In this document: positions 5,566 through 64,000 of the stretch, in pieces | Layout: each line of letters begins with the position of its first letter | Position numbering within the stretch: position 1 is the first letter of the stretch | Assembly (NCBI GenBank): GCA_001791305.1 | Contig: MGEI01000003.1 | Location: forward strand, 13,926 to 77,925 | DNA from: Candidatus Uhrbacteria bacterium RIFCSPLOWO2_01_FULL_47_17 | Lineage (GTDB): Bacteria > Patescibacteriota > Patescibacteriia > UBA9934 > GWF2-40-263 | Direction: 5' to 3' | Length of the DNA: 64,000 nt | The notes under the pieces: model-generated | What the model was told of the DNA's origin: nothing | The model's input: the letters and a program-made list of their open reading frames with translations, nothing else | Databases searched by the model: none | Made by a program: the position numbers and the translations under genes

Positions 5566-7575
5566 TCCAAATACAAACCTGCCGGCGACCAACCAAAAGC
5601 CATCGAGCAACTCGTGGCCGGTCTTCATGATGACAAAAAATTCCAGACGCTTCTTGGCGTAACCGGATCGGGAAAAACGTTTACGATGGCGAACGTGATC
5701 CAGCAAACACAGCGCCCAACGCTTGTCATCGCCCACAACAAAACGCTCGCCGCACAGCTCTGTAACGAGTTCCGCGAGTTTTTTCCGGACAACGTCGTTG
5801 AGTACTTTGTTTCGTATTACGATTACTACCAACCAGAAGCGTACATGCCACGAACGGATACGTATATCGAAAAAGAAGCGATGATCAACGAAGAAATCGA
5901 TCGTTTGCGTCACGCGGCAACACAAGCACTGCTTACACGTCGTGATGTGATTATCGTCGCGTCGGTTTCGTGTATCTACGGTTTGGGTTCTCCAAAGGAA
6001 TATGAAGAAACGGTTTTGCATTTGAAGGTCGGCCCGTCTGCTTCTCGAACCGACTTGATCCGACAACTGATCTCCATGCAGTTTGAACGCACAAACACAG
6101 ATCTCACACGCGGACACTTTCGCGCGAAGGGAGACATCCTCGAAGTCATGCCAACGAACGAAGAAATGATTTATCGTTTGGTGATGTCAGACGAATCGAT
6201 CGAGTCGATTCAACAACTTGATCCCGTGACGCGCAAGATTCTCGACACACGAACCGATCTTTGGATTTTTCCAGCAAAGCACTACGTCGTTTCGCAAGAA
6301 CGTAAATCGAGAGCGATCGGACAAATTCGACATGAACTCGCGGAGCAGCTGAAGAAATTTGAAGAGAACGGACAAGTACTCGAAGCCGAGCGGCTTTCTC
6401 GAAGAACGCGATACGACATCGAAATGATCGAACAGATCGGTTATTGCAACGGAATCGAGAACTACTCGAGATTTTTCGACGGCCGCGCACCGGGCGAGCC
6501 ACCATATACCCTCATGGATTATTTCCCAGAAGATTTTCTCACCCTCGTGGACGAGTCGCACGTCACCATTCCACAAATCGGCGGAATGTATGCGGGAGAC
6601 CAAGCGCGTAAGAACTCGCTCATCGATCACGGATTCCGTCTGCCAAGTGCGCGAGATAATCGTCCGCTGCAATTCGACGAGTTCGAAAAAAAGATCGGCC
6701 AAACGGTTTTCGTTAGCGCAACGCCGGGGCCGTATGAGAAAAAGCATTCGCAAAAAATTGTGGAACAGATTATTCGTCCGACGGGTCTCGTCGATCCGGT
6801 GATTACCGTTCGACCCGTAACAGAATCAGAAAAGAATAAAGGTCAGATCGAAGACTTGATCATGGAAATCGAAAAACGCGTCGCGCTTCATGAGCGAACG
6901 CTTGTGACGACGCTTACGAAGAAGATGGCGGAGGACCTCTCGGAGTTTCTCAAGCAAAAAAATATTGCGGTGCAGTATTTGCACTCGGGTGTTGATACGC
7001 TTGATCGCATTACGATCCTCTCGGATCTTCGAAGAGGGAAGTATGACGTCCTTGTCGGCGTGAACTTGCTTCGTGAGGGTCTCGATCTTCCGGAAGTTAC
7101 CCTTGTCGCGATTCTCGACGCAGATAAAGAAGGATTCTTGCGATCTGATACATCGATTATTCAAACGATCGGACGTGCGGCACGTCACGTGAAGGGAGAA
7201 GTTCTGCTCTACGCAGATCACATGACCGGTTCGCTCGCTCGCGCGATCGAGGAAACGGAACGACGCCGCACGTTGCAGATCGAATACAATACGAAACATA
7301 ACATTACGCCGGTGAGTATCGTGAAAGAGATTCATGACATTCGCGCGATGTTCGGCGAGCGTGATGAGAAATCGATCAAAGATATTTTGAAACTCGAACT
7401 CAAAGCCGATTCGCATGAGATTCAGGAAGTGATTAAAGAGAAAGAGGTGGAGATGCGCGAGGTGGCGAGAAAGTTGGACTTCGAGACGGCCGCGCTATTG
7501 CGAGATGAGGTGACTATGCTTCGCAAAGAACTCGAGAAAAAGTCGACGGTGCCGAAGAGGGTGAAGAAAAAATAA
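5548..7575 (+). CDS. uvrB: Excinuclease ABC subunit B
   Basis: Strong UvrB sequence: [15 protein letters not shown], Walker A GVTGSGKT, helicase motifs, C-terminal UVR coiled coil; ATG at 5548 ([16 protein letters not shown]). Confidence 0.93.
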
Positions 7576-7581
7576 ACTTTT

Positions 7582-10308
7582 ATGCAAGACAAAATTATCG
7601 TGCGGGGTGCGCGCGAGCACAATTTGAAAAATATCAATGTTGAGATGCCTCGCAACAAGCTTGTGTGTATCACAGGTGTTTCGGGTTCTGGGAAATCTTC
7701 GCTTGCGTTTGATACGATTTTTGCCGAGGGGCAACGCCGATATGTCGAATCGCTCTCGGCGTACGCGCGACAGTTTCTCGGACAAATGGAAAAACCCGAT
7801 GTCGATGATATTGAAGGTTTGTCGCCGGCAATTTCCATCGACCAAAAGGCTCACTCGAGTAACCCTCGTTCTACCGTGGCAACCATCACGGAGATTTATG
7901 ATTATTTGCGTGTGTTGTATGCGCGTGTTGGAAAGCCGCATTGTCCAAAATGTGGAGAGCAAATTCAGAAATTGACGAATGAGGAGATGGTGGATGTTGT
8001 TTTGGGAAAGGTTGGAGAGGAAATGAAAGGATCGCTGAAAATTCTCGCGCCTGTCGTCGTCGGAAGAAAAGGGGAGTACTACCAGTTGCTTTATGATTTG
8101 TATAACGCCGGATTCGCGCGTGTGCGCATCGACGGAAAAGAATATCGACTCGATGAGAAGATTGAACTTGCGCGCTATCAACAGCACACCATCGAGGTTG
8201 TGGTCGACACGATACCGGTGGTGGAGTTACTCGAGACCTCATCTTCGAGTGCGACCCCTCTCCCCCCGCCCTCTCCCTCGAAGGGAGAGGGGGCTCGGAA
8301 GGAAACGCGTCAGCGTTTGGCGGAGGCACTCGAAACGGCTGTCGAAAAAGGGAATGATGTTGCGACGATTGTGTATCCAGATAAATCCGAACAAATGCTT
8401 TCGGCAAAGTTTTCGTGTCCGAATGATGGGTTTTCGTTTCCAGAAATCGAACCGCGCCTCTTCTCGTTCAACTCACCTTATGGTGCCTGTCAGGCATGTA
8501 CCGGACTCGGAACGGTCGAATTGTTTTCGGAAGAATTGTGTGAGACATGTCACGGCGCGCGTCTGCGATCGGAAGCGCTTCATGTTTGGCTGCCGGGGGT
8601 GGGGAAGGGCGGAAAGGTTGTAGGGGTGCCCTTTGCCTGCCACCCGCAGCATTTGCGTAGGGTGGTGGGTACCCATGCAGGGAAAAAAAAGAAAACACCC
8701 GTTGCACCGATCGAATACACGGAATCAGACGAGCTGATTCCGATGGCCGAAAAGAAAGGGGTTTCGATCGTGGACATTACGAATATGTCCATCGACGAAG
8801 CGGTTTTGTATTTCAAGACGATCGATGTTTCAGAAAAAGATTTGGAGATTGCGGGTTCTGTTTTGCGCGAGATTGAAAATCGTTTGAAGTTCATGCTCGA
8901 CGTGGGCTTACATTATTTGTCTCTCGATCGTCGCGCAGGCACGCTCTCGGGTGGCGAAGCACAGCGCATTCGACTCGCCTCGCAGGTTGGCTCTCGACTT
9001 GTAGGCGCGATGTACGTTCTCGACGAGCCAACGATCGGACTTCATCAACGTGATAATGACAAGCTCATCAAGACGCTTGAGAATTTGCGCGATCTCGGGA
9101 ACACGGTGATTGTGGTTGAGCATGATGAAGACACAATCATGGCGTCCGACTACATGATCGAGATCGGTCCGGGCGCGGGAGTGCACGGCGGATATGTTGT
9201 GGCTGCGGGTGAAACGCCTGCGATTTTCGAAGACAAGAAGTCGCTCACAGCGGCGTATCTTCGAGGAGATCAAAAAATCGAAGTTCCGGCACAACGTCGC
9301 CAAAATGACGGCGGATCGATTCGTCTCAAGGGCGCAACACAAAATAATTTGAAAAACATTGATGTAGAATTTCCGTTGCGCAAGTTTGTGTGTGTGACGG
9401 GTGTTTCTGGTTCGGGAAAATCAACACTCGCGTACGACACGATGTACAAGACCATCTCGAAACGACTTTATGGAGGATCGCAAACGCCAGGGAAGCACAA
9501 AGCACTCCTCGGACTCGAGTACATCGACAAAGCGATCTTGATCGATCAGGACGCGATTGGTCGCACATCACGATCGAATCCGGCGACGTATACCGGAGCG
9601 TGGGCACCGATTCGTGAGCTGTACGCCGAAACCGCGGAAGCAAAATTCCGTGGATATAAAGTTGGGCGATTTAGTTTTAATCGCCCTGGCGGACGATGTG
9701 AACATTGTGAGGGACACGGACTCATTTCCATCGAAATGCATTTTCTTCCAACGGTGTACGTGACGTGTGATATTTGTAAGGGGAAGCGCTTTGATCGCGA
9801 GACACTCGAGATCACGTTCAAAGAAAAGAACATTCACGATGTTCTCGAAATGACGATCGAAGAAGCGACGGTGTTCTTCAAAGAGATTCCTTACATCTAC
9901 GACAAACTCGCGTCGCTGAACGACGTCGGTCTCTCGTATGTTAAACTCGGCCAACCTGCGCCTACGCTCTCCGGTGGAGAAGCACAGCGTGTGAAACTCG
10001 CGACGGAACTTTCGAAGCGCCAGACGGGACGAACATTGTATCTCTTCGATGAACCAACGACAGGTCTCCACTTCGCCGATGTAAAAAAATTGCTCGAAGT
10101 GATGCACTCACTTGTCGACAAAGGAAACTCGGTTATCGTCATCGAACACAACCTCGACGTAATCAAAACCGCAGACTGGATCATCGACATGGGCCCCGAA
10201 GGGGGAGACAAAGGCGGAACGGTTGTGTACGCCGGCACGCCGGAGGAAGTGGCGAGACACAAGGGAAGTCACACGGGGGAGTATTTGAAACGGGTGTTGC
10301 GTTCGTAG
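7582..10308 (+). CDS. uvrA: Excinuclease ABC subunit A (carries two in-frame repeat-element insertions)
   Basis: 908 aa; twin ABC ATPase domains ([14 protein letters not shown]..., [12 protein letters not shown]..., second [14 protein letters not shown]...), zinc-finger Cys pairs. Confidence 0.95.
8255..8295. repeat. Palindromic GC-rich element family A, in-frame inside uvrA (encodes ...[17 protein letters not shown]...)
   Basis: cccctctccccccgccctctccctcgaagggagagggggct; reverse-complement copy inside cysS at 30621-30660. Confidence 0.6.
8620..8678. repeat. Palindromic element family B, in-frame inside uvrA (encodes ...[22 protein letters not shown]...)
   Basis: gtaggggtgccctttgcctgccacccgcagcatttgcgtagggtggtgggtacccatgc; shorter copy gggtacgtaggggtgccctttatgggtacccatgcc at 41153-41188. 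Confidence 0.5.
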
Positions 10309-10385
10309 AGGAGGGTCGTGACCCTCATGCGTAGACGAACAAACCTGTTGCGAGAAAAATAGAAATAGAGGAAAATGAGAGACAT

Positions 10386-11630
10386 ATGAAACGTCTCTCA
10401 TTTTTTGGTGTTGCGGTTGCGATTATCATTCTCTCCGCTCTCGGAATTTGGTTCGCGACCCGTCCCACGCCCGCGCCGTCCACATCCACTCCCGCCGCCA
10501 TCTCTCCTGCCGTGCCGGCCGATGCGCCCGCAACCGCATCACTCCTCGTGACGCCCATCGTCGCGTCTGTTGCGATTGCACCTTCCACAAATCCTTCCAC
10601 ATTTCAACCCATTACGGTTCCAACACAAGTCATCTCCGGTGCGCGTGTGAAGACAGATGTGACCGGTCGTGCACTCGTTGAAGGAACAAATACAACCGTC
10701 CTCGATTCAAATAGCGAGATGACGATTGCCGTCCTCGATACGCAAAAAAATCAAACACGTTTACAGCTCGAAGCGGGACAAGTTTGGTCGCGCGTCAAAA
10801 AACTTTCAGATAAGGGTGAGTTTTATGAAATTGAAACACAACTTGCACGCGCTTCCGTTCGAGGGACTTCATTTGGGATGAAGAAGGCTGGTAATGTTAC
10901 AACTGTGTATGTTGTCGAAGGGGTGGTAAATTTTGGATCACTTCCACCGGAAGAAAATATAGGATTTGAATCGATCGATGTCGTTGCAGGAAAAAAGGCT
11001 GTACTCCATGACTGGGATCTAAAACCCGTTGTGAGTGACATCACAGACAAAGATCGTCAGGACGCATGGTATGTATTCAACAATCCAACCAAAGCAACAG
11101 CCGCGGAATTGAATGTGGAGACAAGTTCGCAAACGTTTTTGAATCCTCCCACGAATACATCATCTACCACGGAAACTTCCGTGCCTCCTCGAACTCCAAC
11201 ACAAGCTACGCAATCTCCCACAACTCCTCGATCACCAACGCAAACAGCACAACCGTCAGCAGCGGAACCAGCACAAGAACCAGCTTCGTCGAGTCAGGAA
11301 GTTCAGCCAACAACACCAAATCAAACAATCTCTCCCGCAACGCCGGATTCTCCCGAACTTCTTCTTTCATCCGTTTCACCAAGTTCGCTTGTTGCAAGAA
11401 CCGGAGGAACGCTTACTTTGAAAGGGGCGGGATTTCAGGATGCACAGGTATTTTCCGTTTTTATTGGAAATACGCGCATCACATCTTTTACCACGATCGA
11501 CAATTCGACGATTCGACTAACCGTAAAAGCGTTTCAATTTGAACCGGGTGAATATGATGTCACAGTTGCAGGGGCATCGAACGCAACGGCAACGATTTCT
11601 TCTGCGCTCCTGATCAAATCCCAACCATAA
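10386..11630 (+). CDS. Exported or membrane-anchored protein with FecR-like domain, Pro/Thr/Ser-rich linker and C-terminal IPT/TIG-like domain
   Basis: N-terminal TM/signal anchor; FecR-like block (…ASVRGTSFGMKK…VYVVEGVVNF); low-complexity PT linker; IPT-like C-terminus. Confidence 0.5.
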   Translation: MKRLSFFGVAVAIIILSALGIWFATRPTPAPSTSTPAAISPAVPADAPATASLLVTPIVASVAIAPSTNPSTFQPITVPTQVISGARVKTDVTGRALVEGTNTTVLDSNSEMTIAVLDTQKNQTRLQLEAGQVWSRVKKLSDKGEFYEIETQLARASVRGTSFGMKKAGNVTTVYVVEGVVNFGSLPPEENIGFESIDVVAGKKAVLHDWDLKPVVSDITDKDRQDAWYVFNNPTKATAAELNVETSSQTFLNPPTNTSSTTETSVPPRTPTQATQSPTTPRSPTQTAQPSAAEPAQEPASSSQEVQPTTPNQTISPATPDSPELLLSSVSPSSLVARTGGTLTLKGAGFQDAQVFSVFIGNTRITSFTTIDNSTIRLTVKAFQFEPGEYDVTVAGASNATATISSALLIKSQP

Positions 11631-11639
11631 TTTTTTTAC

Positions 11640-13553
11640 ATGCGACATTCAAAACAATGGGCACCATTTATCGCATTTGTTCTCTGCACTATTTTGATTG
11701 TAGAGATTCCATTTGCGTTTGGACTGTTTCACACCGTGCAAGAAAAAATGACCGACCGATTATTTTTGAATCGACCTCCATCGCAAGATGTCGTGATTGT
11801 GGCGATCGATGATGCGAGCCTTCTCGAAATTGGACAATGGCCGTGGCCACGTGTGGTGTTTGCAGAAGCGCTCGATCAACTCACAAAACATACGGATGAG
11901 AAACCGCGTGCCATTGGTGTGGATGTCAGTTTTTCGGAACCCTCGAGTATTGGTTCCGTTGATGATCAAGCGCTCGTACGGACATTGGAAGATGCACAGG
12001 CTCGCGGTGTTCCGATCATTCTGCCGATCGATGTTGGATCGAAGAACCAGTTGATCAGCCAACCCCTCGCACCATTTCTTCCATCCACAAAACAAGGATT
12101 TATCGACAGCCCGATTGATGGCGATGGAGTGGTGCGTCGTGCGGAAACGCGGCGCGGCGCATATCAAAGTTTTGCGCATGCGCTTATCGGAGGTGATGCG
12201 CCCGATGCGTATCGCATCGATTATCATGGAACAAATGGATTCGTAACCGTTCCATTCACGGATGTTTTACATGGCCGCATTCCGGCGCGGATTTTTGCAA
12301 ATAAGATTGTGCTGTTTGGAGCCACTGCACCAAACTTGCACGACTTCGTTGCGACTCCATTCAACCAAATGCCGGGCGTTACATTGAATGCAAATCAGGT
12401 TGAAACCTTACGCGAAGGGAAATTTTTTCATGATGTGGATCCTCGCATCATGTACGGGGTGCTGGCTCTCATCGTCCTTCTCACGTGTTTGATTGTGCGT
12501 TTTGCGAAACGCCTGCGCACGCTCGTGCTGAGTCTCGTCGTGATTTTTTTCGTCCTCATCATCGACGCATCCATTGCATTTGGGATGTACACCATCGTTC
12601 CGATCTTTTACGAACTCCTTGCGTTCGCGTTTTCGATCATCACCGCGCTTGCGTTCCATTACATCACTACCGCAAAAGAAAAAGCGTTCATCAAAAATAG
12701 TTTTCAGTATTATTTGACACCGCACGTGATTGATCAGATTTTGAAAGATCCGGAGAAACTGAAGCTTGGTGGAGAGAAACGCAACATGACGATTTTGTTT
12801 TCCGACATTCGTGGATTCACCACGATCTCGGAAGCCCTCACGCCAGAAGAACTCACACAGTTGTTGAACGACTATCTCACGGCGATGACCGATATCATCA
12901 TGGATGAAAACGGCGTAGTTGATAAATACATCGGCGACGCGGTTATGGCTTTCTGGGGCGCGCCGCTTGATAATGCGGCACACGCATCTGATGCATGTCG
13001 AAGTGCTGTCCTCATGATGAAGCGACTTCGAGAATTCAATGCGCAATCAAAAACTCCATTGAATATCGGTATTGGATTGAATACCGGTGACGTTGTTGTT
13101 GGAAACATGGGTTCGCGCAAGCGTTTTAACTACACGGTGATGGGGGATGAAGTGAATCTTGCATCGCGTCTCGAAAGTTTAACGAAGTACTATCGCGTGA
13201 GTATTCTCGTCACGGAGGCAACACGTGACGCGGCGGAGAAACAGAACGAGGGAACACAATTGCATTTTCGCGAACTGGATCTTGTGATTGTAAAAGGGAA
13301 AAAAGAACCAAAGAAAATTTTTGAGTTGATCGTCGATGAGCCAAGTGAGGTTCTTGATCAAGCGCTCGAGCATTTCCAATCGGGCCGCCTCGCATACGCA
13401 CAAGGAAACTGGGATGCAGCGATTTCCGCATTTCAAAAAGCCATCGCGCTTCATGACGATGGCCCTTCGCACTTGTTTATCGAGAGATGCGAGAAGTTGA
13501 AATTTCATCCACCCGAAGATTGGAATGGGGTGTATGCGTTTGAATCGAAATAA
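11640..13553 (+). CDS. CHASE2 sensor domain / class III adenylate-guanylate cyclase with C-terminal TPR-like region
   Basis: N-terminal TM plus CHASE2-like periplasmic region, TM cluster, cyclase catalytic block FSDIRGFTTISE...KYIGDAVMAFWGAP. Confidence 0.8.
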   Translation: MRHSKQWAPFIAFVLCTILIVEIPFAFGLFHTVQEKMTDRLFLNRPPSQDVVIVAIDDASLLEIGQWPWPRVVFAEALDQLTKHTDEKPRAIGVDVSFSEPSSIGSVDDQALVRTLEDAQARGVPIILPIDVGSKNQLISQPLAPFLPSTKQGFIDSPIDGDGVVRRAETRRGAYQSFAHALIGGDAPDAYRIDYHGTNGFVTVPFTDVLHGRIPARIFANKIVLFGATAPNLHDFVATPFNQMPGVTLNANQVETLREGKFFHDVDPRIMYGVLALIVLLTCLIVRFAKRLRTLVLSLVVIFFVLIIDASIAFGMYTIVPIFYELLAFAFSIITALAFHYITTAKEKAFIKNSFQYYLTPHVIDQILKDPEKLKLGGEKRNMTILFSDIRGFTTISEALTPEELTQLLNDYLTAMTDIIMDENGVVDKYIGDAVMAFWGAPLDNAAHASDACRSAVLMMKRLREFNAQSKTPLNIGIGLNTGDVVVGNMGSRKRFNYTVMGDEVNLASRLESLTKYYRVSILVTEATRDAAEKQNEGTQLHFRELDLVIVKGKKEPKKIFELIVDEPSEVLDQALEHFQSGRLAYAQGNWDAAISAFQKAIALHDDGPSHLFIERCEKLKFHPPEDWNGVYAFESK

Positions 13554-13555
13554 AT

Positions 13556-14074
13556 TTATTCAACAACCAGCGTCCCCACCATTCCCATCGCACGATGGTT
13601 ACCGATGTCGCAATAGAATGGATAAGAACCCGGGGTTGTTGGGACAACAAATTCAAATCCAGATCCGTCTTTCACGGGTACGTTCACTTTTGCTTCGTCA
13701 ATAACAAATGTGTGTGTTCCAACATTGCCACGGAAATCAACACGTAACTTTTCTCCAGGTTTTGCTTTAATGATTTTAGGTTCAAAAAAGAAATTTCCTG
13801 ATTTGAGATCAATTGTTCTGACGGAATTTCCCGCATTGAGTTTAACATCAATAATTGGAGTCCCTTCATCATCTCGTTCAATATTTTTTACCTCTTTTCC
13901 ATCTTTTCCAACGACAATACTCTGTTCCGATGTTGTTCCATCTGAGTTTATTGTTGTAAATGAAACTTCTGGTGCTGATGTTTGAACAGTGTCTTCATTT
14001 GTTTGAACCGGCGTTTTTGCACATCCGGCGCCAATGAATACGAAAATAGATAGGGCGAAAATGATTTTTTTCAT
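13556..14074 (-). CDS. Lipoprotein cupredoxin (type-1 blue copper protein, plastocyanin/azurin-like)
   Basis: Lipobox FIGAGC; C-terminal YPFYCDIGNHRAMGMVG with the Cys-His-Met copper ligands. Confidence 0.7.
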   Translation of the reverse strand: MKKIIFALSIFVFIGAGCAKTPVQTNEDTVQTSAPEVSFTTINSDGTTSEQSIVVGKDGKEVKNIERDDEGTPIIDVKLNAGNSVRTIDLKSGNFFFEPKIIKAKPGEKLRVDFRGNVGTHTFVIDEAKVNVPVKDGSGFEFVVPTTPGSYPFYCDIGNHRAMGMVGTLVVE

Positions 14075-14096
14075 AGAATATGGTTAAATTTGTTTC

Positions 14097-15398
14097 ATGA
14101 TAACAGATCCTATCAAAATAAAGAATGGAGCGCTACCCGACGGTCCTGGGGTGTATTTTTATTTTGATAAAGCAAATCAGCTGCTCTATGTCGGCAAAGC
14201 GACGTCGCTCAAGTCTCGAGTTGGCTCATATTTCTCGAATAAACGTCTCGATCCGCGCATTTCGGAAATGGTTTCGCATATCATCCGGATCGACTACATC
14301 GAAACACCATCGGTTCTCGAAGCCCTCGTCCTCGAGGCGAACCAAATCAAAGCAAAGAAACCGAAGTACAATATTCTCCAGCGCGATGACAAAAGTTATC
14401 TTTACTTGTGCATCACGAATGAGGATTTTCCGCGTCCCGTTTTTCTCCGCGGCCACGAACTCGAAAAGTTTGGTGTGAAGCCGTTCGACAAGGAACTCTC
14501 TCGAGAAGCAAAGAAAAAGTTTTTGCGTGTGTTCGGTCCCTACACAAGTGGCGTCTCGCTCAAGCGCGCCCTCGAGTTGATTCGCCCCATGATTACGTGG
14601 AGCATGTGCGAGCCCAATGCGAAACGCGCATGCTTCGACTATCAACTCAAAAAATGTCCTGGCGTTTGTGTTGGCGCCATCTCGAAAAAAGAATACCGAC
14701 ATACGATCAAACAACTCATCCAATTTTTTGAAGGAAAAAAGACAGCGATCGTGCGCGACATGACAAAGGAAATGAACGCGGCGTCTCGAGCATTGCGATT
14801 CGAGGCGGCGGCGTTACTCCGCAAAAAGATTTTCGCGCTCGAGCATATTCGCGATGTCGCGCTGCTTACAAAAGAAGATTACGCACTGCCTATCGAGAAG
14901 CTCTCGGGTGATACGATTGACTTCGATGGTCGCATTGAGGCATATGACAACTCGAACATATCCGGAACAAGTCCCGTTGCATCCATGACCGTGTTTCTCG
15001 ACGGCAAACCAGCAAAGCATCTCTATCGCAAATTCAAAATCAAAACGGTTGTTGGCGCGAATGATGTCGCGACCATGGAAGAAGTACTACGTCGACGCCT
15101 CGCTCGTCTCGGAACAAAAGGCTGGGAACGACCAGAAGTGATGATCATTGATGGGGGAGAGCCGCAAGTGAATCGCGTCCAAGAAGTTCTTGATGAGTTG
15201 CATCTCGAGATTCCGATCATCGGAATTGCAAAAGGATTCGACAGAAAACAAGATCGACTGGTGTTTGATCGCACAAACAAAGATTTGGCGCGTGCAGCCG
15301 TTCGCGGAAAAGAAATTTTCCAACGTGTACGAGATGAAGTACACCGATTCGCCATCACGTTTCATCGCGCTCGACGATCAAAAAACTTCCTCCCCTAA
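14097..15398 (+). CDS. uvrC: Excinuclease ABC subunit C, short form lacking the C-terminal (HhH)2 domain
   Basis: GIY-YIG (GVYFYFDKANQLLYVGKATSLKSRV), UVR domain (EAAALLRKKIFALEHI), RNase H-like endonuclease domain; 433 aa. Confidence 0.85.
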   Translation: MITDPIKIKNGALPDGPGVYFYFDKANQLLYVGKATSLKSRVGSYFSNKRLDPRISEMVSHIIRIDYIETPSVLEALVLEANQIKAKKPKYNILQRDDKSYLYLCITNEDFPRPVFLRGHELEKFGVKPFDKELSREAKKKFLRVFGPYTSGVSLKRALELIRPMITWSMCEPNAKRACFDYQLKKCPGVCVGAISKKEYRHTIKQLIQFFEGKKTAIVRDMTKEMNAASRALRFEAAALLRKKIFALEHIRDVALLTKEDYALPIEKLSGDTIDFDGRIEAYDNSNISGTSPVASMTVFLDGKPAKHLYRKFKIKTVVGANDVATMEEVLRRRLARLGTKGWERPEVMIIDGGEPQVNRVQEVLDELHLEIPIIGIAKGFDRKQDRLVFDRTNKDLARAAVRGKEIFQRVRDEVHRFAITFHRARRSKNFLP

Positions 15399-15430
15399 GA
15401 ATAAGATGATTTTTTTGGTACAATACAACC

Positions 15431-16486
15431 ATGCATTTCAAGGCTATCAAGCATTTTTTTGAAAAACACGAACGTCTGCTCATGCCAGCGACGTTGATTT
15501 TGGGTACGGCGGTTGATTTTGTGACGTTTCTCACGATTAACATTGAAGCAACGTTTTGGATTTTGGGCGTCTATTATTGTGTTGCCGCAGGGTGTATTTT
15601 TGTTTTGAATACACGTAAAGAAGAGCGTTTGCGGTTGCTCGCAAAATTTCTCATGCAATTCACGTTTGGTGCGCTGCTCAGTGCCTCGCTCGTCTTCTAC
15701 TGGTTCAGCGGCGCCATTTCCGTCAGCTGGCCGATCATGATTTTGCTCGCGCTGCTCATGGTTTCAAATGAAGTGTTCAAAGAATATTATTTGAAACCCA
15801 TCGTCCAAATCAGTGCGTTTTATTTTGTATCGTTTTCGCTTGCTGCACTCATGTTGCCGTACGCTCGTAATTCCTTAGACCCCATTTGGTTTGTTGTTGC
15901 TGGTGTCGCGAGTTTTCTTCTTGTGTGGGGACTCATGACGCTTCTTGGTCACGAGGCAAATAAAGTTCGAGACGCACACAAATACACATTCATGATCATG
16001 GTGAGTATTTTTCTGGGTGTACAGGTTTTGTATTTTACAAATGTCATTCCGCCCATTCCACTTTCACTTCGCGAGGCGGGAGTTTATCACAACATTGTGC
16101 GCGTTGGGGACACGTATAAATTACGTGCGGAGGAGCAGACGTTTTTTGAACGGCTTGATCCCATTCAAACCGTTCATCTCACAAAAAATGATCGCGTCTT
16201 TTTGTACTCATCCATTTTTGCTCCCCTACAGCTAAACACGCAAATTTTTCATCGCTGGCAATATTTTGATTCTGAGAAACGTCAGTGGATCGATTCATCT
16301 CGACACGGATTTTTTATTACCGGTGGACGACAAGGTGGGTTTCGCGGATATTCCTTAAAGATCAATCCAACGCCAGGAATTTGGCGTGTTCAAGTCGAAA
16401 CAACCCGCCGGCAAGTGCTCGGACGCATAAAGTTTCGCGTCGAAGTTGTGAGCGAAGAGCCAACGTTGGTTGAAATTGAGCGCTAA
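15431..16486 (+). CDS. Hypothetical polytopic membrane protein with a soluble C-terminal domain
   Basis: About 6 hydrophobic helices then a 130-aa C-terminal domain; no confident family assignment. Confidence 0.45.
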   Translation: MHFKAIKHFFEKHERLLMPATLILGTAVDFVTFLTINIEATFWILGVYYCVAAGCIFVLNTRKEERLRLLAKFLMQFTFGALLSASLVFYWFSGAISVSWPIMILLALLMVSNEVFKEYYLKPIVQISAFYFVSFSLAALMLPYARNSLDPIWFVVAGVASFLLVWGLMTLLGHEANKVRDAHKYTFMIMVSIFLGVQVLYFTNVIPPIPLSLREAGVYHNIVRVGDTYKLRAEEQTFFERLDPIQTVHLTKNDRVFLYSSIFAPLQLNTQIFHRWQYFDSEKRQWIDSSRHGFFITGGRQGGFRGYSLKINPTPGIWRVQVETTRRQVLGRIKFRVEVVSEEPTLVEIER

Positions 16487-59143: not shown

Positions 59144-60817
59144 ATGCAACGATCTGAATTCTCTGAAGGTCAACCACCGGAAATACCAAAACCAAAAGAG
59201 TCGAAAGAGCCTTCGATGGCTTCGTTTGTGCATGAGGCACTTGCGCATGAATGGAAGCAATTGAAATTTAATGCATTGATGTATGAAGATGTGGTTCAGA
59301 TGTTTGAAAACATTCGCGGTGTTTGTGAGGACAAATTCGTAAAGCTAGTTTTAGATAAAGAAGAACGCGCGGCAAAGCTGCGCGAGATTGCGGAGATTCT
59401 TTTAACAGACTTTACACGCATGTTGCCCGCTCGCGTGAATGCGGATTTATTTGATGTTGTCGCGGATATTTTTCCGGAAGTCAAAGAGGATGTGGCAGTT
59501 TTTGCGCTTTCAAATCTTCCAGAAACATCAGAATTTGCCAAGTGTCGATTTCGATTTATCCAAGGATTGTACCGTGGTGATCGAATAAAGTTTGTAAAGA
59601 TTTTTTCAGAACTTTCTTCATTGGAACGTCTCGAGGCAGTGCGTTTAGCATCCTCTATGGATCGCGAGCCTGTTTTTGTTTGGTATGAAAAAATGGGTAT
59701 GGAGCCGGATGATGCGACCGTTGCACAAATCATCGAAGATGATCCAAAAACCATTGTTGGATATGCAACCGTGCATAAACTCACGTCGAATCAAGTGAGA
59801 TCCATGCTTGAACAATTTGATTCCTTCACACAAGATTCCGCACGTCGTGCGCTGCAGATTCCATTGCGCTTTAGAGCGCATGAAAAAGAATTTGCCGAAG
59901 ACGAAGAGGACGAACCTCCACGACGCATGAAGGATGAGAACGAAGTGAGTCGTGAGTTTGCCATTGATGTTGAGCGCATGAAAGACCTCTCGAACAAGCT
60001 TGCAGACGCGATGATCCGTGCGTATCCAGAACGCGCGGAATATTTACGCGCAAAAAAAGAAAAAGAGGCAGTGTTGTTTGGCTCCATCGAACGCTATGGA
60101 GAACTTTCGAGTGGAATGAACAGTCCGTTGTTTGTGTATTTGAAAGACAAAGATCACACGCCTGCGGTTTATAAACCACAAAAGCGTGAAGCAAAAGGAT
60201 TGCGCGAAAACATTCCGGCGGGTTCATACGCGGCCCGCGAATGGCTCGCATATCAAATCGATCAAGCCTTACAAATTGGAACAACCCCTGTCACAATTTT
60301 GCGTGAAGGCGTGCTTGGAGTTGGTTCTGTGCAAGAATGGAAAGTAGGAAGAAATGCGTTTCGTGGGGATTATAAAAACAAACCAAACCCTGAACAGTTG
60401 GAGGATTTGGTGTTTGATGACGTGGTGAAACAAAACACGGATCGTCACGGACAAAATGTGATTATTGGGTTTGATGGTTCTGTGAACGGAATTGATCATG
60501 GATTAATTTACACAGAAGACGAACAATATTGGATCATCTGTTCACCTGGATATGAGTTTCGCGGCAAAGAGCCATCTGAGCGTGTGCAAAATCGCATTAA
60601 GCAATTTCGTGCGGCAGAGGAGGTGGGTACCATTTTACGCGAGTGTTTTGATGCCGCCCTCGGACGCGCGGCAAAACGCGCTTGGGGAAAATTTGAATAC
60701 GGAACCGAATTTTTATCGCCAACCTATCCAGAGCACAGCCCAAGGTTTCCGCTTACCATTCAACGCGCATCGTTATCCCAAAGGGAGCATGAGTTAAGAA
60801 GCGCGGGTAAAAAATGA
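59144..60817 (+). CDS. Atypical kinase with PI3K/PI4K/HipA-like catalytic core and helical N-terminal domain
   Basis: C-terminal ...AVYKPQ (Lys) ... NTDRHGQNVII (D-R-H-x-x-N catalytic loop) ... IDHG (DFG-equivalent); N-terminal 330 aa helical repeat. Confidence 0.5.
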   Translation: MQRSEFSEGQPPEIPKPKESKEPSMASFVHEALAHEWKQLKFNALMYEDVVQMFENIRGVCEDKFVKLVLDKEERAAKLREIAEILLTDFTRMLPARVNADLFDVVADIFPEVKEDVAVFALSNLPETSEFAKCRFRFIQGLYRGDRIKFVKIFSELSSLERLEAVRLASSMDREPVFVWYEKMGMEPDDATVAQIIEDDPKTIVGYATVHKLTSNQVRSMLEQFDSFTQDSARRALQIPLRFRAHEKEFAEDEEDEPPRRMKDENEVSREFAIDVERMKDLSNKLADAMIRAYPERAEYLRAKKEKEAVLFGSIERYGELSSGMNSPLFVYLKDKDHTPAVYKPQKREAKGLRENIPAGSYAAREWLAYQIDQALQIGTTPVTILREGVLGVGSVQEWKVGRNAFRGDYKNKPNPEQLEDLVFDDVVKQNTDRHGQNVIIGFDGSVNGIDHGLIYTEDEQYWIICSPGYEFRGKEPSERVQNRIKQFRAAEEVGTILRECFDAALGRAAKRAWGKFEYGTEFLSPTYPEHSPRFPLTIQRASLSQREHELRSAGKK

Positions 60818-60919
60818 TGGGGATACAAAAAGAGTTCAGTATTTACTGAACTCTTGATTCTTTTCTGATTTATTGTTACTCTTTTGCCGAAACACGTCAC
60901 ACCTACAAGTACATCGCGT

Positions 60920-61044
60920 GCATAAACTTCTAAAATTGGATGAGATTTTGTTCGGATGCGAGCACCGGAGTAAGCTGTGGAGATACTACTGCGTCGAGGA
61001 GCACAGCAGCCGAACAAAATATCGCCGATTTTAGAAGTTTATGC
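60920..61044. repeat. 125-bp element bounded by 20-bp inverted repeats (GCATAAACTTCTAAAATTGG / CCGATTTTAGAAGTTTATGC) abutting the 5' end of tRNA-Glu
   Basis: 19/20 IR match; nested second IR TTTTGTTCGG / CCGAACAAAA; right arm ends exactly where the tRNA begins. Confidence 0.4.
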
Positions 61045-61119
61045 GGCCTCATCGTCTAACGGTTAGGACAGCAGGTTCTCATCCTGTAAATCGGAGTTCG
61101 ATTCTCCGTGGGGTCACCA
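61045..61119 (+). tRNA. tRNA-Glu (anticodon CUC), CCA encoded
   Basis: Manual fold: acceptor GGCCTCA/TGGGGTC (2 G-U pairs), D arm GTCT-AACGGTTA-GGAC, anticodon stem GCAGG/CCTGT with loop TTCTCAT, T arm CGGAG-TTCGATT-CTCCG, 75 nt. Confidence 0.7.
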
Positions 61120-62623
61120 CAAGGGACTCGCCATCATGGCGGGTCTTTTGTTTTTGTAAAATGAGCGAAATTCTTGTAGTTCCAAAACCTTTTCCCTTAA
61201 AATACGGAATTCCTTCAGGAAAAATCAATTTTTGGAACTTAATTCTTCGTTCTCCTTGTAAGTCATTCCATTGTTGATCAAGATGCTCAACAAATTTGGT
61301 TGCATAAGTAATTGCGAATTCAACATCTAGTTGGTCAGTCTTGTAATCATTCATGGATACGCGGATTGTTGCCATTTCGTTTTCAATCTCAGATTTTCGT
61401 TCTTGATATACCTCTTTCGTATAAGATCCATCCTCAAACATCTCACAAATTCTTTTGCGCTTGGTTTCCAACACACCAAGTTGTTTTACGTATTTTGTTG
61501 CATCTGATTCAAAACTACCGCGTTCTTCTGCCCATCTATCAATTACGCTTTCTCGTAAAAGATCTAAGTGCTGTTTAGTCGGTTCTAATTCTTGCAGAAC
61601 TTTCATAAAGTCTCTTTCCACCGTTTCTTTTGAGAGTGATTTGTTTTGCATGGCACAATCTGGAGTGTAGCAATGATAATATCCGTACTGACCGCCAACT
61701 CCTCTCGATCGACTACCAGTGACAGTGTTGTTACATGCTCCGCATCGAAGAATCTTCTTTAATGGAAAAAGAGGATTAAAGCTTGATCGCGGTTGTTTCT
61801 TAATGCGTTTGCCTTTTCGGATTGCGATGATCTGATACATTTCATCTTCTGTGATCATCGCTGTGTGAAGACCTTTTATCTCTTCATCTTTCACCCATGG
61901 ATTCTGAATAATCCCGGCATAGTATTTCAAATACTGACCAAGCATCTTGTCGACCATTTGCTTTGTCGTTTTTCTATTACGTATTTTCTCTAAGCCTTCC
62001 TGTTTCAAGTAAGCACAAATTTCAGATAACTCGATCTCACCACGAGAGAATCTTTTTAATGCTCTCTGGAGAATAGGAAAAACAACCGGATCAATCCCAT
62101 CAGCTGTATTTTTCTTCTCTCCGTGCATCTTGGAACGATTACTCAAATAACCGAGCGGAGGCTTCCACGGCGTAATTCCTTGCCTTACACGCGCGATCAT
62201 TCCGTCAACGCTTCTTTGAGAGCGAACTGCGTTATCAAACTCTGCTGTTCCGGCCAGAATTGTTTCAAGAAACTTTTGCGAAGGATTGTTTCCAATAAGT
62301 TCCGTGACTGAATGAAGGGTCGTACCGTAATCTTGTAAGAGCTTGCGAATGCTGAAATGATCTTCCGTATTTCTTGCAAAGCGATCAACTTTTACAACAA
62401 CAAATGCATCTATCTTTCCTTTATTCTGATGACAGAATGCAAGTGCACGAAGAAACTCAGTTCGCTCAGACGATTTTGCAGACTCTCCCTCTTCTCGGAA
62501 GACCTTAAGAACTTCTAAACCTTTTTCCAGACAATACTGTCGACATTTTCTTTCTTGATCTTCAAGAGATGTACCATTAACCTGTTCATTTGAACTAACG
62601 CGTGTGTAAATAATTGCTTTCAT
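61079..62623 (-). CDS. Large serine recombinase (integrase) of an integrative element
   Basis: MKAIIYTRVSSNEQ resolvase-type catalytic Ser; recombinase domain; C-terminal Cys zinc ribbon/coiled coil; 3' end overlaps tRNA-Glu by about 40 nt. Confidence 0.85.
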   Translation of the reverse strand: MKAIIYTRVSSNEQVNGTSLEDQERKCRQYCLEKGLEVLKVFREEGESAKSSERTEFLRALAFCHQNKGKIDAFVVVKVDRFARNTEDHFSIRKLLQDYGTTLHSVTELIGNNPSQKFLETILAGTAEFDNAVRSQRSVDGMIARVRQGITPWKPPLGYLSNRSKMHGEKKNTADGIDPVVFPILQRALKRFSRGEIELSEICAYLKQEGLEKIRNRKTTKQMVDKMLGQYLKYYAGIIQNPWVKDEEIKGLHTAMITEDEMYQIIAIRKGKRIKKQPRSSFNPLFPLKKILRCGACNNTVTGSRSRGVGGQYGYYHCYTPDCAMQNKSLSKETVERDFMKVLQELEPTKQHLDLLRESVIDRWAEERGSFESDATKYVKQLGVLETKRKRICEMFEDGSYTKEVYQERKSEIENEMATIRVSMNDYKTDQLDVEFAITYATKFVEHLDQQWNDLQGERRIKFQKLIFPEGIPYFKGKGFGTTRISLILQKQKTRHDGESLVVTPRRIELRFTG

Positions 62624-62633
62624 ACGTTGATTC

Positions 62634-63773
62634 TTACATTTTGGTTTCGAAGAGGTTGATGTATTTTGAGAATACGAACATTCGATTTCTTTTGAATCCG
62701 GTTGTTTCCTTCAAAATCCCTAATTTTTCAAATTCAGTGAGTAAAGTAATTGCAGACGGTGTTGAAATATTCAACCACTGAACAACTTGCTTACTGTTTA
62801 CGATTGGTTGTGAATAAAGTTTATTTAAGAACTCACGCGCAACAGGTGCACGTTTTCCCATTTTCAGAATGCGTTTTTCAAGATCCTCACGCAGGTCGAT
62901 GATTTTTTGGAATGTTTCGACTCCACTTTTAGCCGTTTCTGCAACACCAACAAGAAAGAATCTGATCCAGTGTTCAATGTCATTTGATGTTCTTACATGT
63001 GTCAGTGCATCGTAGTATTTGCCTTTATTACGCTCAAAAAAATCCGATAAATACAACGTGGGCTTTTGAAGCAGGTTGTTATTCACTAAATAGAGCGTAA
63101 TCAAAAGACGACCGATACGTCCGTTTCCATCTAAGAAAGGGTGAATGGTTTCAAATTGATAATGACTGATCGCGACACGGATCAAATGTGGAACCTCAAT
63201 CTTTTTGTTGTGCCAAAACTTTTCCAGATCACTCATGAGTGCAGAAACTTCGGTTGGATGTGGTGGAATAAAGATAGCGTCTTTAAGTGTTGCACCCCCG
63301 ATCCAGTTTTGACTCGTTCGAATATCACCCGGCATTTTGTGCTTTCCCCTTACGCCTGAAAGAAGAATCTTGTGAGTGTCTTTTAAGAGCCTTGTTGAAA
63401 GAGGTGTCTTCGAGAGCTCCTTAATCGCTCCGTTCATCGCCTTGGTGTAATTTTGAACCTCTGACCAGTCATCACGACGTTCAGGATCAATCTCTTCTTC
63501 TGGCAACAACGCCTCATCCATGCCCGTTTTTGTTCCTTCAATGCGACTCGATGTTGTTGCTTCTTTAAGGACGTGCATTCTGATATAGAAATCAACGTCC
63601 GGAACGAAACGAGAAAATGCATTCAGTTCGGCAAGATGGCGTGTTGCTTCTTCGAGAAGAACGTCGATTCTTGGGTCGGTCCAGGAAAACGGATGATTAA
63701 CCGGAGTAGGACTAAAACTTTTGTACTTATCCTGTTGCTTATAGATTCCTGCTTTGAAGACATTGCTTTGCAT
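62634..63773 (-). CDS. Fic-family AMPylator (class II, N-terminal inhibitory motif) with C-terminal winged-helix region
   Basis: Canonical [12 protein letters not shown] Fic motif; upstream TSSRIEGT = (S/T)xxxE(G/N) inhibitory motif. Confidence 0.85.
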
Positions 63774-63864
63774 AAGAATTGAACTTTTAGTATGGATTCT
63801 CTTACTTAAAGTTTATCTACTAACTTTTATTATGTCAAATCATACTAAAAGTTACTTATCCGCT

Positions 63865-64000
63865 TATTTTCCTTCAATCATGCCTTTGTATCGCTGCTTT
63901 CGATAGTTCAAATCCAAACACACACGACAACCAATAATTTCGGAAATATAGTGCTTGAACAACACTCCAACTCGTCGTTTACATTGAGGACATTTGAACC
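63865..64000 (-). CDS. Partial gene, C-terminus of a zinc-ribbon (CPxC...CxxC) protein; continues beyond the window
   Basis: Frame translation ...FKCPQCKRRVGVLFKHYISEIIGCRVCLDLNYRKQRYKGMIEGK*; identity uncertain. Confidence 0.25.

What the first reader, a model, noticed from the sequence alone, without database searches (positions are those of the whole stretch)
61045..64000. Integrative element at tRNA-Glu carrying a large serine recombinase and a class-II Fic AMPylator
The serine integrase gene starts next to and overlaps the 3' 40 nt of tRNA-Glu(CUC), the classic arrangement in which an island restores the tRNA 3' end. The cargo visible so far is a Fic protein with intact [12 protein letters not shown] and an N-terminal SxxxEG inhibitory motif (autoinhibited AMPylator, toxin-like), plus a zinc-ribbon gene. 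A 14-bp dyad aacttttagtatgatt / aatcatactaaaagtt at about 63790-63880 lies between Fic and the next gene. The element continues beyond the window.
Basis: partly seen in the sequence, partly recalled or inferred. Interest (0 to 1): 0.6.

Follow-up and report, generated by a model that had tools for sequence, protein, structure and literature searches.

The report
Serine-integrase island split at tRNA-Glu
A 13.6-kb mobile island carrying a SoFic-type anti-phage gene sits at the end of a tRNA-Glu gene, put there by a serine integrase whose recombination site lies inside its own coding sequence, so insertion swaps the enzyme's C-terminal tail; this design recurs in many ultra-small (CPR) bacteria.

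Summary
tRNA-Glu(CUC) lies at 61045-61119. A 514-aa large serine recombinase (LSR) is antisense at 61079-62623 and overlaps the tRNA by 41 nt. A full-length SoFic-type class II Fic, a zinc-ribbon gene and an operator-like dyad follow.

Contigs that extend past the window show a 13,640-bp low-GC island. Only the last 9 nt of the tRNA (GGGTCACCA) are repeated at the far end, next to the original tRNA terminator. The 41-nt overlap is therefore not the restored segment: the LSR reading frame simply runs across attL into host DNA.

Joining the two island ends gives a 531-aa LSR with a C-terminal 'WN..IEEL..W' helix. That helix is conserved in homologs, including one on a circular 15.8-kb contig. 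attP therefore lies inside the integrase gene, and integration swaps the tail.

In 46 of 80 homolog loci, mostly Patescibacteria, the LSR runs into an antisense tRNA of eight amino-acid types. Ten loci carry the detached tail upstream of the LSR, and it is in frame in nine.

I found no description of serine integrases that target tRNA genes or of this split-gene design. The function of the tail and current mobility of this copy are unproven. No empty site or excised circle of this exact element was found.

The parts
61045..61119 (+). tRNA-Glu(CUC), intact, with encoded CCA; this is the host target gene (attB lies at its 3' end)
   Evidence: ARAGORN; Rfam tRNA model, 57.1 bits, E=1e-11
61111..61119 (.). 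attL core GGGTCACCA, the last 9 nt of the tRNA. It is repeated once at the far end of the island (L019 7637-7645, window-equivalent 74751-74759). The crossover must lie within it; a weak dyad suggests the TC of GTCA.
   Evidence: A 9-nt match is not significant on its own. Its position at the GC step, next to the tail-coding segment and a terminator, is what identifies it. The dyad evidence is weak.
61119..61160 (+). Intrinsic terminator for the tRNA (15-pair hairpin plus T-run), supplied by the island and encoded inside the linker-coding part of the LSR ORF
   Evidence: Terminator scan. The hairpin is kept through 4 compensatory pairs among 5 elements of the tRNA-Glu clade.
61079..62623 (-). 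Large serine recombinase in its integrated form (514 aa). Codons up to 61111 are island DNA. The last 10 codons plus the stop (61079-61110) are read from the antisense of the tRNA body.
   Evidence: Pfam; catalytic R8/S10 and four zinc Cys invariant in 33 homologs; 1295 homologs at E<=1e-10; tail analysis
62634..63773 (-). SoFic-type class II Fic (Fic_N + Fic + C-terminal domain), 10 nt upstream of the LSR on the same strand and probably co-transcribed with it
   Evidence: Pfam; PDB SoFic 3eqx/3zcn, E about 4e-37 over residues 16-375; PADLOC SoFic, E=7e-122
63782..63853 (.). Operator-like dyad. There are three copies of AACTTTTAkTATG: two direct and one inverted. They overlap a promoter-like site (TTGACA-17-TAAACT, - strand, 63838 to 63810) upstream of Fic-LSR.
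   Evidence: Function is inferred only.
63864..64000 (-). 3' part of a 109-aa zinc-ribbon gene (CPQC...CRVC); the full gene is L001 9581-9910

Best explanation
This is a 13,640-bp non-viral, plasmid-like integrative element. Its gene order is LSR, SoFic, zinc-ribbon protein, 203-aa and 62-aa proteins, Prim-Pol/PriCT primase (787 aa), a 48-aa protein, DUF5659, a 380-aa protein, then a divergent operon of small membrane proteins and a 521-aa protein. It is inserted at the extreme 3' end of tRNA-Glu(CUC) in a CPR bacterium, probably Candidatus Uhrbacteria. A large serine recombinase inserted it, and that enzyme's attP lies inside its own reading frame, in the sequence coding for a disordered linker between the zinc-ribbon domain and a conserved C-terminal helix.

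Shown: recombination within the 9-bp core GGGTCACCA left the tRNA unchanged. It gave the tRNA a new terminator that is encoded within the LSR gene. It separated the last 18 codons of the LSR (LERLDWNLMIEELNGWMR...) from the gene and placed them 13.6 kb away at attR, next to the original tRNA terminator. The integrated LSR instead ends in 10 codons of antisense tRNA.

Inferred: the free circular form makes the 531-aa enzyme that carries out integration. After integration the enzyme lacks the helix, and its mRNA runs head-on into the tRNA gene, so the enzyme's activity, directionality or expression differs between the two states. SoFic is defence cargo.
For: The far end was located by a GC step right after the 521-aa gene, by the 9-nt core and by a terminator. 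Joining the two ends gives a 531-aa ORF, the same length as the closest intact homolog P0011 (67% identity), with an alignable tail. An HMM of 41 homolog tails was run against the six-frame translation of window+L001+L019 (180,620 aa). It gave one hit, exactly at the far end (E=3e-5; the next best hit had E=1). It gave no false hits in 1.2 M aa of unrelated loci.

P0011 sits on a 15,841-bp contig with a 30-nt terminal overlap, which indicates a circle; 12 control contigs had no overlap. That contig has no tRNA, and its attP DNA is homologous to the one reconstructed here. P0010, L023 and L024 show the same 41-nt overlap with other hosts' tRNA-Glu(CUC).

In 46 of 80 genome loci the LSR 3' end runs into an antisense tRNA: Ala, Met, Glu, Lys, Arg, Ile, Tyr or Leu. 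All 33 tail-HMM hits in those loci lie on the LSR strand. Ten tRNA-integrated loci carry a detached tail 2.6-9.8 kb upstream of the LSR, in most cases preceded by a 5-9-nt core that is the reverse complement of the tRNA 3' end. In 9 of those 10 the tail is in frame, giving reconstructed ORFs of 530-540 aa.

The tail shows a coding-type conservation pattern, with codon-position entropies of 0.95/0.60/1.15. An AlphaFold2 model of P0011 is folded to about residue 490, has a disordered linker at 492-509 and a helix at 510-530. The terminator hairpin shows covariation. The family is absent from 2.9 M viral contigs (best hit 36% identity), and the island proteins tested gave no PHROG hits.
Against: No empty attB and no attP junction of this exact element was found. 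Every contig that carries the flanking gene also carries the island, so current mobility is unproven. The 9-nt repeat is insignificant on its own. The crossover dinucleotide is only weakly indicated. The invariant TGGAAC in the tail, including a synonymous position, shows that part of the tail's conservation could be a DNA-level att-arm constraint rather than selection on the peptide. Homologs with intact tails also occur on large chromosomal contigs with no tRNA nearby, which the simple 'intact means excised' rule does not explain. No recombination directionality factor was identified. The Pfam Recombinase domain scores just below its cut-off.
Confidence: 0.85

Rival explanations
1. This is a classic tRNA island. 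The element carries a copy of about 40 nt of the tRNA 3' end, which is the part the integrase overlaps, and restores it on insertion as tyrosine-integrase islands do.
For: The tRNA is intact, the integrase abuts it, and the island starts at the tRNA.
Against: No second copy of the 41-nt segment exists within 23 kb beyond the tRNA. Only 9 nt are repeated. The integrase is a serine recombinase, not a tyrosine recombinase. In relatives the shared core is 5-9 nt.
Confidence: 0.03
2. This is a fixed, no longer mobile remnant. The element integrated as described but is now a stable part of this lineage's chromosome. The LSR/tRNA overlap is just a frozen scar.
For: All 10 displayed places that carry the 557-aa flank gene also carry the island. 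No attP-form protein of this element is in the 5.8-billion-protein collection: cluster P0006 has a single 514-aa sequence. No attP junction was found in IMG/VR.
Against: The LSR ORF, the Fic gene, Prim-Pol and the detached tail are all intact, and the tail is still in frame. Several independent assemblies break within about 250 nt of attR. A relative with 67% identity was assembled as a circle.
Confidence: 0.25
3. This is a small temperate virus of a CPR bacterium whose structural genes are too divergent to recognise. The operon of nine orphan genes would encode virion proteins.
For: Nine consecutive orphan genes, several encoding small membrane proteins, plus a primase.
Against: The ten orphan-gene products tested gave no PHROG hit. 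The LSR family has no member above 36% identity in 2.9 M IMG/VR contigs. Relatives carry plasmid/ICE-type and defence genes: ParB, a restriction-modification system, CBASS, ArdC and a TraG-like coupling protein.
Confidence: 0.08
4. The conserved 'tail' is only the P arm of attP, a DNA binding site for the integrase. It happens to be translated, and the peptide has no function.
For: TGGAAC is invariant even at the synonymous third base of Asn and lies about 20-25 bp from the core, where LSR zinc-ribbon domains contact attP (general LSR knowledge).
Against: Conservation extends about 60 nt beyond the core, which is longer than an LSR half-site. It follows a codon pattern (position 2 < 1 < 3), with synonymous variation at E, L, W and L positions. 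The frame and total length are kept in 9 of 10 other elements. The segment is predicted as a helix at moderate confidence.
Confidence: 0.3

Closest known systems
Large serine integrases of phages and mobile elements (phiC31, Bxb1, A118, SPbeta SprA, TnpX, CcrAB)
   Same: The domain order is the same: resolvase catalytic domain, recombinase domain, then a zinc ribbon with a long coiled-coil. The att identity is very short (a 9-bp core). The enzyme sits at the edge of the element.
   Different: The target is the 3' end of a tRNA gene. The 2014 Islander paper states that serine integrases are not known to target tRNA or tmRNA genes (PMC4383910), and the 2022 LSR survey never mentions tRNA (PMC10083194). 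attP lies inside the integrase ORF, so integration changes the protein. A terminator for the target gene is encoded within the ORF.
tRNA-gene genomic islands with tyrosine integrases (Islander-type signature)
   Same: The island lies between an intact tRNA gene and a repeat of its 3' end. The element restores the gene and carries defence cargo.
   Different: The recombinase family is different. The repeat is 9 nt, whereas the Islander signature is a detectable fragment of the tRNA gene. Only the terminal nucleotides and the terminator are supplied by the element.
SSV1-type archaeal integrases (attP inside the int gene, tRNA target)
   Same: attP lies within the integrase coding sequence, and integration into a tRNA gene partitions the gene (review PMC8371274, listed; the mechanism is from my own knowledge).
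   Different: Those are tyrosine recombinases of archaeal viruses, and the split cuts off a large part of the enzyme. Here the enzyme is a bacterial serine recombinase and only an 18-codon C-terminal helix is detached.
Integration-dependent immunity of mycobacteriophages (BPs, Brujita)
   Same: attP lies inside a coding sequence, so integration changes a protein's C-terminus and with it the protein's behaviour (abstract of PMC4557955).
   Different: In those phages the split gene is the repressor and the integrase is a tyrosine recombinase. Here the integrase itself is split, and no functional consequence has been shown.
SoFic anti-phage defence / class II Fic AMPylators (Shewanella oneidensis SoFic)
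   Same: Full-length match with the catalytic and inhibitory motifs in place.
   Different: This copy is carried on a CPR mobile element directly upstream of the integrase. Its activity and target are untested.

Membership tests
Large serine recombinase (serine integrase) | N-terminal resolvase catalytic domain with the catalytic serine | tested here: met
   PF00239 E=2.3e-32, residues 3-149. R8, S10 and R81/R84 are invariant in 33 homologs.
Large serine recombinase (serine integrase) | Recombinase domain (PF07508) after the catalytic domain | tested here: inconclusive
   19.8 bits against a cut-off of 21.1, E=9.6e-4, residues 183-271. A few homologs carry a precomputed PF07508 hit.
Large serine recombinase (serine integrase) | Zinc-ribbon domain with four Cys and an inserted coiled-coil | tested here: met
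   PF13408, 27.1 bits against a cut-off of 25.3. C294, C297, C318 and C323 are invariant. The AlphaFold2 model of homolog P0011 has long helices at 350-398 and 403-431.
Large serine recombinase (serine integrase) | Short att sites that share only a few bp around a 2-bp crossover | tested here: met
   The core is 9 bp here and 5-9 bp in nine relatives. The crossover dinucleotide itself cannot be tested with these tools.
Class II Fic / SoFic defence protein | Fic motif HxFx(D/E)GNGRxxR | tested here: met
   [12 protein letters not shown] aligns with HPFIDGNGRTGR of SoFic.
Class II Fic / SoFic defence protein | Inhibitory motif (S/T)xxxE(G/N) on an N-terminal helix of the same chain | tested here: met
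   SSRIEG aligns with SSEIEN of SoFic. Fic_N E=6e-24.
Class II Fic / SoFic defence protein | Full-length similarity to the SoFic defence family | tested here: met
   PADLOC SoFic E=7.1e-122, profile positions 4-359 of 361.
Class II Fic / SoFic defence protein | AMPylation activity and protection against phage | not testable with these tools
   Needs biochemistry or infection assays.
tRNA-gene genomic island (Islander signature) | Intact tRNA gene plus a fragment of it flanking an integrase-bearing island | tested here: met
   The tRNA is at 61045-61119 and its last 9 nt recur at L019 7637-7645. The island between them is 13,640 bp. The fragment is far shorter than is usual.
tRNA-gene genomic island (Islander signature) | Tyrosine-family integrase | tested here: not met
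   The only recombinase in the island is of the serine family. No Phage_integrase hit was found among the island proteins.
Prophage | Recognisable virion or packaging genes, or relatives among viral contigs | tested here: not met
   No PHROG hits for ten island proteins. The best LSR relative in IMG/VR has 36% identity.
Split-integrase elements (attP inside int) | Joining attR-left to attL-right restores a longer, conserved integrase ORF | tested here: met
   The reconstructed ORF is 531 aa. Tail HMM E=3e-5, unique hit. The same holds in 9 of 10 other loci. An intact form sits on a circular contig.

The most novel reading that the evidence does not exclude
This is a large, mostly CPR family of serine integrases that target tRNA 3' ends and carry attP inside their own gene. 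Integration removes a conserved C-terminal helix. That removal would act as a built-in sensor of the integrated versus free state, controlling directionality or expression without a separate directionality factor, or together with one. In some relatives the same intragenic site appears to accept small cassettes that each bring a fresh copy of the tail. This gives integron-like arrays next to the integrase (L045: four cassettes; L043: one CBASS-bearing insert).
Probability: 0.3. Interest if true: 0.85.

Novelty: new variant of a known kind. Interest (0 to 1): 0.66.

Why it matters
Serine integrases are the main enzymes used for inserting large DNA segments. They are thought to avoid tRNA genes and to need a separate protein to reverse direction. 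Three features of this family bear on that.

- Its attB is the conserved 3' end of a tRNA, so it could provide insertion sites that already exist in most genomes.
- A self-splitting integrase gene suggests a new and very compact way to couple enzyme form to integration state.
- The family appears to be a major vehicle for defence genes (SoFic, restriction-modification, CBASS) in CPR bacteria, whose mobile elements are poorly known.

The split design also means that automated annotation will report these integrases with wrong, tRNA-derived C-termini. Some pipelines will drop them altogether: in the loci retrieved here, the JGI and NCBI gene calls omit the LSR.

Tried and rejected
- **Repeat search.** I looked for a copy of the 41-nt tRNA segment in 10 kb and then 23 kb beyond the tRNA. 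None was found, only chance 8-12-mers.
- **Walking the contig.** A homolog search with the 233-aa N-terminal fragment of the 521-aa protein returned only five distant hits, not the protein itself. IMG/VR had no relative of that fragment. The single metagenome scan finally gave L019, which holds the far end.
- **Empty site.** The 557-aa flank protein has no relative in the GTDB representative genomes. All contigs that carry it hold the island. Look-ups of the right-flank antiporter and of its 85% and 62% relatives gave the same junction, contigs that start too close to the gene, or lost synteny.
- **Excised form.** The attP junction 21-mer is absent from IMG/VR.
- **Dyad centre of attP across the family.** The signal is weak. 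The top-scoring symmetry is the terminator hairpin, and the att centre ranks only third to fourth.
- **Apparent deletion in Prim-Pol.** The 52-bp 'deletion' in the NCBI copy proved to be an N-run scaffold gap.
- **Source of the window.** I first took the window to be MGEQ01000007.1. It differs from that record at one base (61124) and is identical to the ENA scaffold over 59144-64000, so the exact source record is undetermined.
- **Hairpin upstream of the tRNA.** Rfam has no family for the long hairpin upstream of the tRNA.
- **Structure of the tail.** The structure prediction gave only a moderate-confidence helix for the tail and no information on what it contacts.
Full report
**1. What is in the window**

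ARAGORN and the Rfam tRNA model place tRNA-Glu(CUC) at 61045-61119 on the + strand, with an encoded CCA. On the opposite strand an ORF runs from 62623 to 61079 (514 aa). It matches Resolvase (E=2e-32) and Zn_ribbon_recom above the cut-off, and Recombinase just below it.

It is the 3' end of this gene that overlaps the last 41 nt of the tRNA. Ten nucleotides upstream on the same strand lies a 379-aa Fic_N+Fic protein. It aligns over its full length with Shewanella SoFic (PDB 3eqx/3zcn, E about 4e-37), including [12 protein letters not shown] and the inhibitory SSRIEG. It hits the PADLOC SoFic defence model at E=7e-122.

The gene cut by the window end encodes a 109-aa CPQC...CRVC zinc-ribbon protein. 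Between it and Fic lies an imperfect 32-nt dyad (63782-63813 / 63822-63853) whose perfect part is 13 bp. The dyad overlaps a promoter-like site that faces Fic.

**2. Extent of the element**

Exact-protein look-ups found the same locus on many metagenome contigs and in two NCBI MAGs. The window is identical to an ENA scaffold over 59144-64000 and differs at one base from MGEQ01000007.1.

- **Genes beyond the window.** They encode a 203-aa and a 62-aa protein, a 787-aa Prim-Pol/PriCT primase, a 48-aa protein, DUF5659 and a 380-aa protein. A divergent operon of nine orphan genes follows, four of whose products are small multi-pass membrane proteins. The last gene of that operon encodes a 521-aa protein.
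- **Composition.** GC is 0.29-0.42 throughout, against about 0.45-0.55 in the chromosome. The drop begins at the tRNA.
- **Far end.** A JGI contig (L019) carries the far end. GC jumps from 0.31 to 0.45 immediately after the stop of the 521-aa gene.
- **Repeat.** The sequence there reads ...CAAGTCTCTCAA GGGTCACCA AAAACACTCAGCTTCGGTTGGGTGTTTTTG.... That is the last 9 nt of the tRNA followed by a terminator hairpin, then a membrane-protein gene and a Na+/H+ antiporter gene.

The island is 13,640 bp from core to core. No longer copy of the tRNA exists in the 23 kb beyond the tRNA. A 9-mer match is not significant on its own; its position is what identifies it.

**3. attP lies inside the integrase gene**

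The LSR ORF crosses the core, and its last 10 codons (PRRIELRFTG) are antisense tRNA.

The 120 best homologs (50-76% identity, of 1295 at E<=1e-10) share the protein up to '...KSxLV' and then fall into two kinds:

- 66 of the 120 end in peptides that are recognisable translations of antisense tRNA (GIEP, GFEP..TSxLQMRRSTN).
- 41 of the 120 end in a conserved 'xxxxxWNQIIxELxxWxxL' tail.

Joining the far end of the island to the LSR through the core gives a 531-aa ORF ending ...SLVVTLERLDWNLMIEELNGWMRFREVCAVGV. This is the same length as the closest intact homolog P0011, which ends ...SLVVTLRRLPWNQFIEELRGWTSFQQLASTIR.

An HMM of the 41 tails, built without the residues shared before the core, was run against all six frames of window+L001+L019. 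It found only this segment (E=3e-5; the next best hit had E=1). It found nothing spurious in 1.2 M aa of unrelated loci.

P0011 lies on a 15,841-bp contig with a 30-nt terminal overlap, the signature of a circle in a k=31 assembly; 12 control contigs had none. That contig has no tRNA. Its attP DNA (GAGTCCCTTGTGGTGACCCTTCGGCGACTT...) is homologous to the one reconstructed here.

**4. The design is general**

A scan of GTDB representative genomes with an LSR alignment returned 80 loci. Most are Patescibacteria, and the nearest are Candidatus Uhrbacteria.

- In 46 of the 80 the LSR 3' end runs 32-193 nt into an antisense tRNA: Ala, Met, Glu, Lys, Arg, Ile, Tyr or Leu.
- All 33 tail-HMM hits in these loci lie on the LSR strand.
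- Ten tRNA-integrated loci have a detached tail 2.6-9.8 kb upstream of the LSR. In most of them it is preceded by a 5-9-nt core equal to the reverse complement of the tRNA 3' end, and often by a terminator.
- In 9 of those 10 the detached tail is in frame with the LSR at the junction. The reconstructed ORFs are 530-540 aa and the elements are 4.2-11.3 kb.
- P0010, L023 and L024 repeat the 41-nt overlap with the tRNA-Glu(CUC) of other hosts.

**5. Coding and structural details**

An AlphaFold2 model of P0011 (51-sequence alignment, mean pLDDT 82) is folded to about residue 490. It has a disordered stretch at 492-509 and a helix at 510-530 with block pLDDT of about 56-78.

The disordered linker is encoded by exactly the DNA that holds the att core and, on the tRNA-sense strand, a 15-pair terminator (61119-61151 plus a T-run). 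That hairpin is kept through four compensatory pairs among five elements of the tRNA-Glu clade. The element therefore supplies the tRNA with a terminator hidden inside its integrase gene.

Across 25 tails the codon-position entropies are 0.95/0.60/1.15, with synonymous changes at E and L. This pattern indicates selection on the peptide. TGGAAC is nevertheless invariant even at a synonymous site, so a DNA-level role as part of the attP arm is also likely. A dyad centred on TGAC (crossover GA/TC) is visible by eye in the tRNA-Glu clade but weak across the family.

**6. Mechanism**

Shown:
- the anatomy of attL, attR and the reconstructed attP and attB;
- the tail swap;
- the recurrence of the design across tRNA types;
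- a circular relative.

Inferred:
- The 531-aa protein from the free element integrates it at the tRNA end.
- In the integrated state the enzyme lacks the helix, carries 10 residues encoded by antisense tRNA instead, and is transcribed head-on into a tRNA gene. Its activity, directionality or level would then differ between the two states.

A precedent for an extreme C-terminal element of a serine integrase affecting directionality exists for SprA: Abe et al. 2021, cited in PMC11722253. I could not read that paper itself. I give the functional-switch idea a probability of about 0.3.

**7. Nature of the element and its cargo**

The island proteins tested gave no PHROG hits. The LSR family has no member above 36% identity in IMG/VR. 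Relatives share a module of DUF5659, a small protein and a primase or helicase. They carry restriction-modification, PIN, ParB, CBASS, AAA_21/RloB, toxin-antitoxin and TraG-like genes.

The best description is a plasmid-like integrative element that ferries defence genes. Here the defence gene is SoFic.

**8. Comparison with what is known**

The Islander paper states that serine-family integrases are not known to target tRNA or tmRNA genes (PMC4383910). The 2022 survey of thousands of LSRs analyses protein-coding targets and never mentions tRNA (PMC10083194). Searches combining serine recombinase or integrase terms with tRNA, CPR or Patescibacteria, or with 'within the integrase gene', found no description of this design. 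A later description cannot be excluded.

The closest analogues are SSV-type archaeal tyrosine integrases (attP inside int, tRNA target) and integration-dependent immunity in mycobacteriophages. Both use a different enzyme family.

**9. Limits**

No empty site and no excised form of this exact element was found, so current mobility is unproven. Several assemblies do break within about 250 nt of attR, which hints at heterogeneity in the population.

Homologs with intact tails also sit on large chromosomal contigs of non-CPR MAGs with no tRNA nearby. This is unexplained.

**10. Verdict**

This is a serine integrase family that targets tRNA 3' ends through an attP embedded in its own gene, so the gene is split on integration.

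Noticed in passing
L045 (= L046) 9983-16482: An intact LSR is followed by four cassettes of 1.0-1.45 kb. Each has one variable orphan gene, a conserved 300-nt module with a 62-73-aa ORF, a terminator-like segment, the core GTGGTGGTC and a full copy of the LSR tail-coding segment. The most distal tail equals the tail of related LSRs (L051), as if insertions at the LSR 3' end had pushed the original tail outward. The logic resembles an integron.
   Followed up: partly
L043 11587-17085: A 5.4-kb block lies between the intact LSR tail and a second, degenerate tail copy. It carries a CBASS-like pair (Cap15 receptor domain and SMODS CD-NTase) and an IrrE/HTH pair. It looks like a single cargo insertion at the same site.
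   Followed up: partly
L039, L043, L069, L071, L082, L086 (LSR at about 10001-11600 in each): LSR homologs with intact 'WNQI' tails sit on 84-789-kb contigs of non-CPR MAGs, with no tRNA within 10 kb. How these elements are held in the chromosome is unexplained.
   Followed up: partly
window 60920-61044: A long, nearly perfect hairpin of about 125 nt directly abuts the 5' end of tRNA-Glu. Folded together with the tRNA it gives z=-6.7 against shuffles. There is no Rfam match, and it is absent upstream of tRNA-Glu in four relatives.
   Followed up: partly
L019 5961-7526 (521-aa gene) and L001 884-4278: The last island gene encodes a 521-aa protein with a PD-(D/E)xK-like motif (SD...EYIFQIECK) near its C-terminus. 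It follows four small multi-pass membrane proteins and other orphan proteins. The set could be a second defence or exclusion module. Only five distant homologs were found.
   Followed up: partly
L019 about 7384-7778 (attR region): Three independent assemblies end within about 250 nt of attR: JGI C687J35504_10001039, ENA k141_404009 and NCBI MGEQ01000007.1. Contigs of an 85%-identical relative start just beyond it. This may reflect strain heterogeneity at this junction.
   Followed up: no
window 61124: There is a single-base difference between assemblies 5 nt from the att core, inside the terminator stem. One mismatch per 401 nt against six of eight contigs, and against MGEQ01000007.1.
   Followed up: no
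L003-L005, L007, L010, L011, L013, L014, L016, L017 (JGI and NCBI gene calls): The JGI and NCBI gene calls for this locus omit the LSR gene altogether, probably because it overlaps a tRNA. The ENA calls keep it. Automated annotation therefore hides this integrase family.
   Followed up: no
L020 8712-10097 and L161 12070-12864: Related elements carry a second, shorter serine recombinase in addition to the tRNA-targeting LSR.
   Followed up: no
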